From: Octopus vulgaris
Taxonomy: Eukaryota
NCBI GenBank assembly: GCA_951406725.2
Contig: OX597837.1
Span: 47,926,001 to 47,990,000, forward strand
DNA length: 64,000 bases
Reading direction: 5' to 3'
Part shown: piece after piece, positions 20,966 to 23,644 of the stretch
Position numbering within the stretch: position 1 is the first letter of the stretch
How the letters are laid out: the number at the start of each line of letters is the position of its first letter
Made by a program: the position numbers and the translations under genes
Notes under the pieces: model-generated
Database searches by the model: none
Told to the model about the DNA's origin: nothing
Seen by the model: only the letters and a program-made list of their open reading frames with translations

Positions 20966-23644
20966 TTACTGATAGGTTCGGAAAGGTAGAAAAGTATTCG
21001 GTGCGGTCTGGTAGTGGGGGTCATACTCATAATAAACTTTGTGGCTGTCGATGTTCGGTTTGTAATCAGTATACCCCGGGTAGATACCGAACCTGTACCG
21101 ATATCTTGCTGTGTACGATATCTGGTTAGGATTTGCTCTAGGGATTGTTGCCACCGGAATGGAGTACTTTGATGCCCAATGCTTTCGAGGATGGTTCCTA
21201 AAGCCGCCAATGTTCCAGTTGTTGTTCGTTGATCTAGGAATCTCGTCCAGAAGTCCGTCCCCAACTGATTTTCTCCAATCTGGATAAGAGAAAGATTCGA
21301 ACCAATGTCTTTGATTTTCAACTTCTGCTATGTCTTTCCGCAGTTGTTGCTTCATTTTGCCTTCGTGGAAACTGAAAGTTTTCCCGAAGTGGTCAAGATT
21401 GAAACCTTCGTGTCTGGCTAAGAAATTATTGGAATGGAATGCCATTTGATGAGAAACAGCATCTACAGTATTAGCGGCAATATCAGCTGTATTAAAGGGC
21501 TGAACGTGGTGGTTAGGCAACGTGAAATCGAATTCAGATAGATCACGTTTCTTTCTGGTCGATCGAAGTTTCTTACGATTTTGTAAAATATCCGATGAAG
21601 AAGCTGGGAGAACATCTTTGGTCCGCAATTTAGGTTTTTCTGTTCGGTTACTTTTGTCTTCGCGAGTGATATCCTTCTGAGAGTGTTCAGTCTTTGAATT
21701 TGCTGCTGAAGAGCAGTTGGAGAGGCATGTCTTCACGTCACCGCCCTTGGGTCCGATATTTTGGCTATCTGTTCCTTTTTCCGAAGCTGCAGAAGCCACT
21801 TTCTTTTCAGAAAACTTCTTCAGTAACCAATTTGGAAATAGTGGCAAGAGAGATTGGAATCGTCTGTCACCATTTTTAGATGCCGTAGGAAAACCATTTC
21901 CAGTTTCAACTGAGTCCTTTAAGTTTCCATTGAATTTAGAATATATCGATGTTACCGCTAATATTTTCCCACTCCGATCACTAGGTGCTATATTAGGGGA
22001 GAAATCCATGTGTGAAAAGTTATCATTCTTCAAATTTTGAGATGAAAAATTATTATTTCCATTATTTAGGTGGCTTCTATGCAAATGATCGCTTTTAGCA
22101 TTGTTGACTATTTCGTGGCGATTTAGTTGTTTCGGAGAATTTCCTAAACTGTCTTTATTATTTCTACTTCGAGAGTAAGGAAATCTTTCGAAGAAAATAT
22201 TTCCGTGAAATCTTCGTGAATAGTCGACGGCGGGCGTATTCTGTGATTGTTCGTCAGCCGTTAACCATTGACCCGGCATCCAAGGTCCACCGCCAACAAA
22301 CAAGAAATTCGATTCATTTGGATATTGTCTTCTCGTCATTTCAGCCCCATCTCTTTGGTTATTTCCTGACGCTTCTGCTCCTTCTTTGTGCTCATCGTTT
22401 CCATTATTATTAAACTGGAATGCGTTTTTGTCCATTTTTACCACCACAATAGGAATTTTTTGACGTTCAACAAAATTTGTGGGCGAGAAAAATGGAGACC
22501 ATCGATTCTCAAGTTGGAAATCATTAAATCTGAAAGAGTTTTCTTTCCCCGGCCATTTGCGTTTTGGCACAAAGTTTTTTGGTTTATCATCATCAAATTC
22601 TTGAAGACGTGGTGGTTTTCTATAAATACCTCTTGTTTGACGTTTCGTTCGCCGCAGTGGCGAAACAAGATCTCTTTTCAACACAGGTTCTACTGAAAAG
22701 ATAACTAATTTATTTCTAAAATTTGGATTTGGATTCAGCTGAAGATTGCCACTTTTTGCCAGAATGATTGGTATATTTCTCTGATAAGCATGAAAATTAC
22801 GATCCACACTGTTTTCGAATACTGCTTGTTGCAGACTTTCAAAACCATTGTTTTCTATACCAGGATAATATTGTTTCGCTCGAAGTTCTCTGTTAAAATT
22901 TAAGCGATCAAAAACTTTGTGATATCTTTGTCTTTCGGTATTTTCTACCCTCTCAGCTGTTGGACGCCACAATAAATCCCGATTTCGAACAACAGCGGAA
23001 TTGAGTGGGAAAATCTCCACGGGATGAACAAACTTTGTTTGAATACTTTGTACGGGATATAGAAATATTGGTTGTTCATTACTAGTGTCATCCTGACTTA
23101 ACCATTGTCTTCCTGCATGAAACTCTCGTGCAGGTAGATGCATAAATCGACCGTTTTCAGTGGGATGATTGAAGCTTTGTTGGTGTTGATCAGCATCGAT
23201 AAATCGATCATTTTGAAGAAATGATGGCGACTGATCTTGACTGTGTGCTCTGCTGGTGGGCTTTAATGATTTATCTTGAGACATCAGCTTAATCAACCAC
23301 GTGGGATAATTTGTCGAATTGGCTGGCAAATCAGGAACCCCTTTGAATTTTGGATGGTCGTTCCAAAACTGTTGCGAATCTTCCTTTCTCGGAAATAGTG
23401 GAAAGTCTGGCGTTGTGTTTGTCTGAAACTCATCCTGCTGCTTCTCGTGATAGCTCTGAGCAGAAGAGTACTGTCTTTCAGTTGTGGTTTGCAGTATAGG
23501 TTCCACTGTTGCACTAACTGCGGTAGCTTGCTCGGTATTTTCGGGAATATCTGGAACTGAGGCGTTCAAATTTTCGCCAAATATACTTGATACAATGACG
23601 AACAGAAAGAGGATCGCAAATGACAATGTCTTCTGACCACACAT
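20966..23644 (-). CDS. Uncharacterised secreted precursor-like protein, ~892 aa, single coding exon
   Basis: 2.68-kb uninterrupted ORF in AT-rich repeat DNA. An ttttctttccAG acceptor lies 13 nt before the ATG (exon starts at 23657). Signal peptide MCGQKTLSFAILFLFVIVSSIFG; furin-type sites RRTKR and RSTRKKR. No transposon motifs recognised. Confidence 0.88.
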   Translation of the reverse strand: MCGQKTLSFAILFLFVIVSSIFGENLNASVPDIPENTEQATAVSATVEPILQTTTERQYSSAQSYHEKQQDEFQTNTTPDFPLFPRKEDSQQFWNDHPKFKGVPDLPANSTNYPTWLIKLMSQDKSLKPTSRAHSQDQSPSFLQNDRFIDADQHQQSFNHPTENGRFMHLPAREFHAGRQWLSQDDTSNEQPIFLYPVQSIQTKFVHPVEIFPLNSAVVRNRDLLWRPTAERVENTERQRYHKVFDRLNFNRELRAKQYYPGIENNGFESLQQAVFENSVDRNFHAYQRNIPIILAKSGNLQLNPNPNFRNKLVIFSVEPVLKRDLVSPLRRTKRQTRGIYRKPPRLQEFDDDKPKNFVPKRKWPGKENSFRFNDFQLENRWSPFFSPTNFVERQKIPIVVVKMDKNAFQFNNNGNDEHKEGAEASGNNQRDGAEMTRRQYPNESNFLFVGGGPWMPGQWLTADEQSQNTPAVDYSRRFHGNIFFERFPYSRSRNNKDSLGNSPKQLNRHEIVNNAKSDHLHRSHLNNGNNNFSSQNLKNDNFSHMDFSPNIAPSDRSGKILAVTSIYSKFNGNLKDSVETGNGFPTASKNGDRRFQSLLPLFPNWLLKKFSEKKVASAASEKGTDSQNIGPKGGDVKTCLSNCSSAANSKTEHSQKDITREDKSNRTEKPKLRTKDVLPASSSDILQNRKKLRSTRKKRDLSEFDFTLPNHHVQPFNTADIAANTVDAVSHQMAFHSNNFLARHEGFNLDHFGKTFSFHEGKMKQQLRKDIAEVENQRHWFESFSYPDWRKSVGDGLLDEIPRSTNNNWNIGGFRNHPRKHWASKYSIPVATIPRANPNQISYTARYRYRFGIYPGYTDYKPNIDSHKVYYEYDPHYQTAPNTFLPFRTYQ

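What the first reader, a model, noticed from the sequence alone, without database searches (positions are those of the whole stretch)
20966..23644. Large orphan secreted precursor with furin sites and an aromatic-rich C-terminal product
Seen: an intact 892-codon exon with a signal peptide; an N/Q/F/R-rich, probably disordered body; only one Cys pair after the signal (CLSNC); RRTKR (22640-22654) and RSTRKKR (RKKR at 21545-21556); and two KR|DL junctions. Cleavage after RKKR would free a 192-aa C-terminal piece ending in a Tyr/Trp/Arg/Pro-rich tail (WASKYSIP...YTARYRYRFGIYPGYTDYKP...YYEYDPHY). Established: R-x-K/R-R is the furin consensus. Inference: a lineage-specific proprotein, such as a structural, adhesive or egg-capsule protein, or a pheromone/venom-gland peptide precursor. 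I recognise no family.
Basis: partly seen in the sequence, partly recalled or inferred. Interest (0 to 1): 0.72.

Follow-up and report, generated by a model that had tools for sequence, protein, structure and literature searches.

The report
Octopus orphan proprotein, conserved tyrosine tail
This spliced, single-copy octopus gene belongs to no known family and encodes a long protein with a signal-like start and two conserved furin-type cut motifs; the protein is likely cut to release an end piece whose tyrosine-rich tail, the only part matched in a distant relative, probably acts as a binding or adhesive unit outside the cell.

Summary
The 892-codon frame and every named motif are at the stated places. 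It is exon 2 of a spliced, single-copy gene: contigs of 2 of 4 laid runs join it to an exon ending at 26982 across a 3,324-base GT-AG intron. That exon holds an in-frame upstream ATG (27070, +34 aa). It is already on record as uncharacterized O. sinensis LOC118767721; a public O. vulgaris model fuses it to a gag-like fragment, which the contigs contradict. No family, paralog or usable structure was found. The furin motifs alone are not beyond chance (2 against 0.59, p 0.12), but in a relative 4-8% diverged both show only synonymous changes. Constraint rises along the protein: dN/dS 0.7-0.9 at the N-terminus, 0.35-0.46 in the last 192 aa. The only distant homologue among 1.84 billion representatives is a 66-aa fragment, 58% identical to aa 829-891. 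Best reading: a furin-processed secreted proprotein whose C-terminal piece is the working part, probably for matrix binding or adhesion. Tissue, cleavage and function are untested. Four look-ups found no earlier scan note on it. Real, but an ordinary kind of orphan.

The parts
26982..27070 (-). 3' part of exon 1, with the in-frame upstream ATG at 27070 (30 codons here, 34 extra aa in all); an in-frame stop lies 8 codons upstream. The true 5' end is not known.
   Evidence: Loose ends of X1 (0 mismatches in 25 at 26982) and X15 (5 in 30; 138 letters long, only 30 shown) map here; matches P0002 aa 1-30; unique in the genome.
23658..26981 (-). Intron, 3,324 bases, GT...AG, holding simple and interspersed repeats
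   Evidence: several intron bins have zero or near-zero depth in 4 of 4 RNA-like runs; run X18 continues from the exon into the intron.
20966..23644 (-). Main coding frame in exon 2 (exon starts at 23657), 892 aa plus stop
   Evidence: 5 aa differences from O. sinensis XP_036368640.1 and none from aa 192-1083 of CAI9740451.1.
23576..23644 (-). Predicted signal peptide aa 1-23, cleavage after Gly23 inferred from the -3/-1 rule; a signal anchor if the upstream ATG is used
   Evidence: Only hydrophobic peak; organism C changes F9I, F13C, I17V, I21V stay hydrophobic and G23 is synonymous. SignalP was not available.
22673..23575 (-). N-terminal piece aa 24-324 (35 kDa), fast-evolving, likely pro-region
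   Evidence: dN/dS 0.71-0.94 over aa 5-113 (18 non-synonymous, 7 synonymous listed); 7.6% DNA divergence over aa 35-263.
22640..22678 (-). KR|DL dibasic site, short spacer and furin-type motif RRTKR (aa 323-335), followed by Gln336
   Evidence: in organism C no listed change in KRDL, one synonymous change in RRTKR, two replacements in the spacer.
21545..22639 (-). Middle piece aa 336-700 (42 kDa, net +22, Asn/Ser/Lys-rich) with the single Cys pair at 21727-21713
   Evidence: 4.4-6.6% DNA divergence and a 39-base in-frame deletion (aa 409-421) in organism C.
21545..21565 (-). Furin-type motif RSTRKKR (aa 694-700)
   Evidence: only a synonymous change listed inside it in organism C, with replacements at aa 689 and 692.
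20969..21544 (-). C-terminal piece aa 701-892 (22.7 kDa), predicted mature product
   Evidence: dN/dS 0.35-0.46 (12 non-synonymous, 9 synonymous); pN lower than at the N-terminus (Fisher p 0.006) while pS does not differ (p 0.6).
20972..21160 (-). Conserved Tyr/Pro/Arg-rich tail aa 829-891
   Evidence: 37 of 64 identical to P0004, E 3e-14 in 1.84 billion proteins; P0004 hits only this place in the genome; 2 replacements and 3 synonymous changes in organism C.
20056..20965 (-). 3' untranslated region, at least to 20056; AATAAA at 19943 and 19929 is only a hint of the end
   Evidence: One X14 contig holds both 20902-21614 and 20056-20197.

Best explanation
This is a spliced, single-copy octopus gene of no known family whose product is likely secreted and predicted to be cut by a furin-like convertase at RRTKR and RSTRKKR, releasing a 22-kDa C-terminal piece that probably works outside the cell as a matrix-binding or adhesive unit through its conserved tyrosine-rich tail. 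Shown: gene structure, splicing, conservation pattern. Inferred: entry into the secretory pathway (about 0.9, as soluble or tethered form); cleavage at the two sites (about 0.75); the last 60 aa carry the function (about 0.8); the function is matrix binding, adhesion or Tyr cross-linking rather than signalling (about 0.5). The long, mostly disordered, fast-changing front part would act as a pro-region or spacer that keeps the sticky end soluble until release.
For: Splice junction in 2 of 4 runs laid. Net indels in 4 of 4 gapped or skipped places of X14 are multiples of three (-15, +3, -39, -12; table 8). Hydrophobic N-terminus is kept in organism C. Both basic motifs show only synonymous changes while neighbours change. 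Constraint gradient towards the C-terminus, and the independent distant hit covers only aa 829-891. Tyr cluster beyond 5,000 of 5,000 shuffles. 81% of windows score as unfolded by FoldIndex. Convertase P-domains occur at 7 places in this genome. R-X-(K/R)-R is the furin motif (PMC8310232, passages). No amidation signal, no peptide repeats and one Cys pair point away from classical peptide precursors.
Against: Two furin motifs in 869 aa are not significant alone (p 0.115), and over 4-8% divergence few codons change anyway. Pooled dN/dS is 0.49 (p 0.008) but 0.64 (p 0.067) with a transition bias of 3. The difference tables were incomplete: 26 of 30 differences seen for the X14 C-terminal contig, 34 of 42 for X15. 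There are no internal repeats of the kind usual in structural proteins (best self-match 46 against a shuffled 95th percentile of 48). No chitin-binding or other family was hit. No tissue information. P0004 is one unnamed fragment that does not show the cleavage site. An upstream ATG may turn the signal into an anchor.
Confidence: 0.42

Rival explanations
1. Same processing, but the released C-terminal piece is a signalling ligand (hormone- or pheromone-like) whose conserved end binds a receptor.
For: The tail is conserved right to the C-terminal PFRxY. Single copy. Gln directly after RRTKR could form pyroglutamate (established knowledge; sequence).
Against: No G-[KR][KR] amidation signal, no Cys in the piece, no repeated peptides. 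Cuttlefish SP pheromone precursors are about 250 aa, cut at many dibasic sites into 1-8 kDa, mostly Cys-containing, partly amidated peptides (PMC3484142, passages).
Confidence: 0.22
2. A gamete or reproductive recognition protein built like echinoderm bindin: furin-cut prepro form, variable body, short conserved C-terminal core.
For: Sea-star bindin has a furin-type site, a variable middle and a conserved 43-aa core at the 3' end (PMC4063459, passages). Near-neutral N-terminal evolution with a conserved end fits that plan.
Against: No sequence similarity to bindin. No Cys-rich pro-region, no repeats, no B18 motif. No region tested has dN/dS above 1.
Confidence: 0.13
3. The upstream ATG is the main start, so the hydrophobic stretch is an uncleaved anchor. 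The protein is then a type II membrane precursor whose outer pieces are shed by furin. This is compatible with either function above.
For: The upstream ATG is in frame, lies in the spliced exon and is used in the RefSeq model. In organism C the 9 visible codons across the junction are open, with 2 synonymous changes. Both ATGs have a pyrimidine at -3.
Against: A good -3/-1 cleavage site follows the hydrophobic stretch and is kept in organism C. The upstream ATG was not visible in organism C. Long signal peptides can still be cleaved (own knowledge).
Confidence: 0.13
4. The basic motifs are incidental and the protein works uncut, as one long disordered secreted protein with a functional tail.
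For: Motif count is within chance; the protein is rich in K and R (13.6%).
Against: Both motifs carry additional upstream basic residues and show no replacement in organism C; the drop in pN falls on the far side of the second site.
Confidence: 0.1

Closest known systems
O. sinensis LOC118767721 (XP_036368640.1, UniRef A0A7E6FMJ4); O. vulgaris CAI9740451.1
   Same: The same gene: 5 differences in 892 aa, and none, respectively.
   Different: Both are unnamed. The first adds 34 aa from exon 1. The second fuses a DUF7041 gag-like fragment from window 39390-38830, whereas the contigs show exon 1 at 26982 as the partner.
Echinoderm preprobindin (PMC4063459, passages)
   Same: Secreted precursor, furin-type site, variable body, short conserved C-terminal core: a likeness of plan only.
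   Different: No homology; no Cys-rich pro-region, no repeats, no B18 motif; gamete expression not known here.
Sepia officinalis sex-pheromone precursors SP-alpha and SP-beta (PMC3484142, passages)
   Same: Cephalopod, signal peptide, basic-site processing.
   Different: They are about 250 aa and give five to seven small, mostly Cys-containing, partly amidated peptides; this protein is 892 aa with large pieces, one Cys pair and no amidation signal.
Lineage-restricted secreted matrix proteins of molluscs (suckerins, beak proteins, shell secretome; recalled, with PMC4897951 and PMC5400390 seen as search listings only)
   Same: Orphan, secreted, disordered, aromatic-rich, fast-evolving.
   Different: No tandem or modular repeats, no Gly/His/Ala bias, no chitin-binding family hit, single copy.

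Membership tests
Furin/PC-processed secretory proprotein | N-terminal signal peptide or anchor | tested here: met
   Single hydrophobic stretch at the N-terminus, conserved in kind; SignalP was not available.
Furin/PC-processed secretory proprotein | R-X-(K/R)-R motif, conserved | tested here: met
   Two motifs, only synonymous changes listed in organism C; the count alone is not significant.
Furin/PC-processed secretory proprotein | Cleavage occurs in vivo | not testable with these tools
   Needs proteomics or cell expression.
Neuropeptide or pheromone precursor (Sepia SP type) | Many dibasic sites giving small, amidated or disulfide-bonded peptides | tested here: not met
   [KR]R 8 against 8.5 by chance; no G[KR][KR]; one Cys pair; no internal repeats.
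Bindin | Cys-rich preprobindin and core with the B18 motif | tested here: not met
   Absent from the sequence; no Pfam or phmmer hit.
Bindin | Sperm acrosome expression | not testable with these tools
   Run libraries and tissues are not on record.
Chitin-binding cuticular or repetitive structural proteins | Chitin-binding domain or modular repeats | tested here: not met
   No such Pfam family for the whole protein or its pieces; self-similarity within the shuffled range.
Abraxas (MPN-like domain, PF21125) | Match to the family model and to the host's own Abraxas | tested here: not met
   A PDB hit of aa 733-816 at E 0.0019 was not upheld: the family model finds the real gene on C14 and not this locus at E up to 10; none of 3 octopus Abraxas exons aligns in the register of the PDB hit, and 0.03-0.26 of shuffles score as high.
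Transposon- or virus-derived frame | Repeat copies, or homology to element or viral proteins | tested here: not met
   Single copy; the pattern-seeded hits score E 49 to 1.8e5 at library scale.

The most novel reading that the evidence does not exclude
The 60-aa tail is the founding member of an undescribed, cysteine-free extracellular recognition module of cephalopods. It would be released by furin from a large disordered precursor and act as a gamete-recognition or pheromone-type ligand, with two weak start codons giving a tethered and a secreted form.
Probability: 0.15. Interest if true: 0.65.

Novelty: new member of a known kind. Interest (0 to 1): 0.32.

Why it matters
Cephalopod genomes hold many unnamed secreted genes, so one more does not surprise a specialist. 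What this adds is practical: the correct gene structure (one public model looks like a false fusion with a retroelement fragment), two predicted cleavage points, and a 60-aa conserved tail that can be searched for, synthesised and assayed. If the tail is an adhesive or cross-linking unit it is a new biomaterial motif; if it is a ligand it would be a new class of cephalopod signal.

Tried and rejected
Family and structure searches: Pfam gave only sub-cutoff hits (Ribosomal_L37 E 0.033, RbcS E 0.2); NCBIfam none for 2 of 2 proteins; PDB none for the whole protein at E 0.01 and none under E 0.8 for the tail profile. The Abraxas 2 hit was followed up and rejected. AlphaFold2 on two-sequence alignments gave mean pLDDT 32.5 (192 aa) and 41.5 (73 aa), too low to use, so no fold search was run. 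The ESM Atlas gave only chance-level hits (0.81-0.82) and nothing for the C-terminal piece. Word-index searches of proteins of 30-489 aa found nothing and even missed P0004, so they are insensitive here; proteins over 1,561 aa were not searched by that tool. Paralogs: none in the genome (the first used a stricter first look) and none in 200 kb on either side. An apparent internal repeat at aa 113 and 603 is within the shuffled range. Metagenome, viral and prokaryote scans gave 0 hits for A1 and 3 short hits for A2, all chance. No holder is on record as RNA, and contig depth (3-18) and the four non-holding runs were not used as evidence on expression level or tissue. No complex prediction was obtained, so self-association is untested. 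Literature: no paper holds the gene or protein identifiers or the tail motif (main text only); supplementary tables were not searched and may list the gene with tissue data. PMC9999432, PMC9839350 and 10.1101/802215 (passages) gave nothing specific. Four look-ups of earlier scan notes gave nothing on this gene.

Full report
Observation. Window 20966-23644 on the minus strand gives 892 aa and a stop; it is by far the longest frame in the window. The second KR|DL is the RKKR site itself, so there are three basic junctions: KR|DL (aa 324), RRTKR| (aa 335) and RSTRKKR| (aa 700). They would give pieces of 301, 11, 365 and 192 aa after the signal. In 10,000 shuffles R-x-[KR]-R is expected 0.59 times against 2 seen (p 0.115) and [KR]R 8.5 times against 8 seen, so the motifs alone prove little. 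The Tyr cluster, 11 in 50 aa, was reached by 0 of 5,000 shuffles. FoldIndex is negative in 81% of 51-aa windows, and the best internal self-match lies within the shuffled range.

Identity. The only near-length homologue among 5,230 candidates is O. sinensis LOC118767721, 926 aa. Its cluster has one other member, O. vulgaris CAI9740451.1, 1,083 aa. They differ from the window protein at 5 and 0 of 892 positions. The O. sinensis model adds 30 codons from window 27070-26981. The O. vulgaris model instead adds 187 aa from 39390-38830, a DUF7041 fragment that I read as a retroelement gag (recalled).

Gene structure and transcription. Twenty of 24 listed runs hold all or part of the stretch; none is on record as RNA. 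In 4 of 4 runs laid on 19500-28000, contigs cover the exon at depth 3-18 and several intron bins are at or near zero. On 22590-23708, 2 of 4 runs (X1, organism A; X15, organism C) leave the sequence at the acceptor with a loose end; X11 stops at 23522, and X18 runs on into the intron. The loose ends map to 26982 with 0 of 25 and 5 of 30 mismatches, defining a 3,324-base GT-AG intron. The gene is therefore spliced, and the fusion to the gag-like piece is unsupported. Exon 1 is unique in the genome and holds one ATG, in frame, 34 codons ahead of the ATG at 23644; both have a pyrimidine at -3. Which start is used is open. One X14 contig carries the 3' region on to 20056. The runs give no tissue information.

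Evolution. Organism C differs by 4.2-7.6% at DNA level, most in the N-terminal third. Net length changes in X14 are -15, +3, -39 and -12 bases, all multiples of three (table 8; the -15 may fall partly in the UTR). Among the listed differences, aa 5-113 have 18 non-synonymous and 7 synonymous changes (dN/dS 0.71, or 0.94 with transition bias 3), aa 299-345 have 5 and 4, and aa 701-892 have 12 and 9 (0.35 or 0.46). pN differs between the ends (Fisher p 0.006) and pS does not (p 0.6). Pooled dN/dS is 0.49 (p 0.008) or 0.64 (p 0.067). These counts rest on 26 of 30 differences for the X14 contig and 34 of 42 for X15, come from two runs of organism C, and partly from a contig at depth 4.3, where errors are possible. 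Inside KRDL, RRTKR-Q and RSTRKKR-DL only two changes are listed, both synonymous, while S328, L330, N689 and K692 change. The signal region changes only to other hydrophobic residues.

Distant homologue. phmmer over 1.84 billion representatives gave 2 hits at E up to 0.001: the O. sinensis protein and P0004, an unnamed 66-aa Logan fragment. P0004 matches aa 829-891 at 37 of 64 identities, and its only hit in this genome is this locus, so it is likely an orthologue from a much more distant animal. Within that independently set boundary organism C shows 2 replacements and 3 synonymous changes (dN/dS 0.19; pN against the N-terminus p 0.015). One of the two, A832V, is also read in the other three runs. 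The gene is single copy, with no relative within 200 kb on either side.

Family tests. Pfam, NCBIfam, the ESM Atlas and PDB gave nothing above cut-off. One weak PDB hit, aa 733-816 to Abraxas 2 at E 0.0019, was tested: PF21125 finds the true octopus gene on C14 but not this locus, and none of its 3 exons aligns in the register of the PDB hit. I reject it as chance. Both AlphaFold2 models were unusable (pLDDT 32.5 and 41.5, two-row alignments); this is no proof of disorder. Three pattern-seeded microbial or viral hits are chance.

How it most likely works. Shown: a spliced gene, a hydrophobic N-terminus, conserved basic motifs, and constraint concentrated in the last piece and above all in its last 60 aa. 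Inferred: the protein enters the secretory pathway; a furin-like convertase (motif in PMC8310232, passages; 7 P-domain matches in this genome) cuts it at aa 335 and 700; the 22.7-kDa end piece is the working unit; and its Tyr/Pro/Arg-rich tail binds or cross-links extracellular material while the fast-changing front acts as a pro-region. I put the processing architecture at about 0.7 and the whole statement, with the matrix or adhesive role, at 0.42. Rivals are a receptor ligand (0.22), a bindin-like reproductive protein (0.13), a tethered type II form from the upstream ATG (0.13, compatible with the others) and an uncut protein (0.10).

Comparison. It resembles preprobindin in plan only (PMC4063459, passages) and fails the membership tests for bindin, Sepia SP pheromone precursors (PMC3484142, passages), chitin-binding or repetitive structural families, and Abraxas. 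Full-text searches for its identifiers and tail motif found 0 papers; supplements were not searched. Uncharacterised lineage-specific genes are common markers of cephalopod sucker and connective cells (PMC9839350, passages).

Verdict. A real gene, already predicted but uncharacterised: a new member of a known kind, the lineage-restricted secreted proprotein, with a small conserved tail for which I found no description. Interest 0.32.

Noticed in passing
window 38827-39507 (-): DUF7041 fragment (E 1e-14), gag-like by recall, fused to this gene in public model CAI9740451.1; the contigs show a different upstream exon.
   Followed up: yes
window 26250-26890: Very high-copy interspersed repeat inside the intron; summed contig depth above 100,000 in its core bins.
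   Followed up: no
window 48533-48934 (-): Tc1/Tc3-like transposase fragment (HTH_Tnp_Tc3_2, E 0.0016, below cut-off).
   Followed up: partly
window 9178-11387 and 31926-33286: Broken frames that look like an RTE-type LINE and a Penelope-type element (recalled resemblance; the two pieces scanned gave no Pfam hit).
   Followed up: partly
window 23113 and 21150: The window encodes G178 and A832 where 4 of 4 runs read R and V; X11 shares the window's base at 23113, so that site is polymorphic.
   Followed up: partly
L034:7307-8641 (-): 444-aa Asn-rich frame about 130 kb away; its end looks like a Penelope-type endonuclease (recalled); no Pfam hit.
   Followed up: partly
L037:5735-6409 (+): Exon resembling the N-terminus of ZSWIM4/5/6 (recalled; no Pfam hit); the nearest conserved-looking gene among frames of 200 aa or more.
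   Followed up: no
L022:2705-3943 (+): PIF1 helicase frame (E 6e-60), probably a Helitron remnant.
   Followed up: no
L051-L053 (G000:C14, about 71.41 Mb): Three exons of the octopus Abraxas gene, found as a control.
   Followed up: partly
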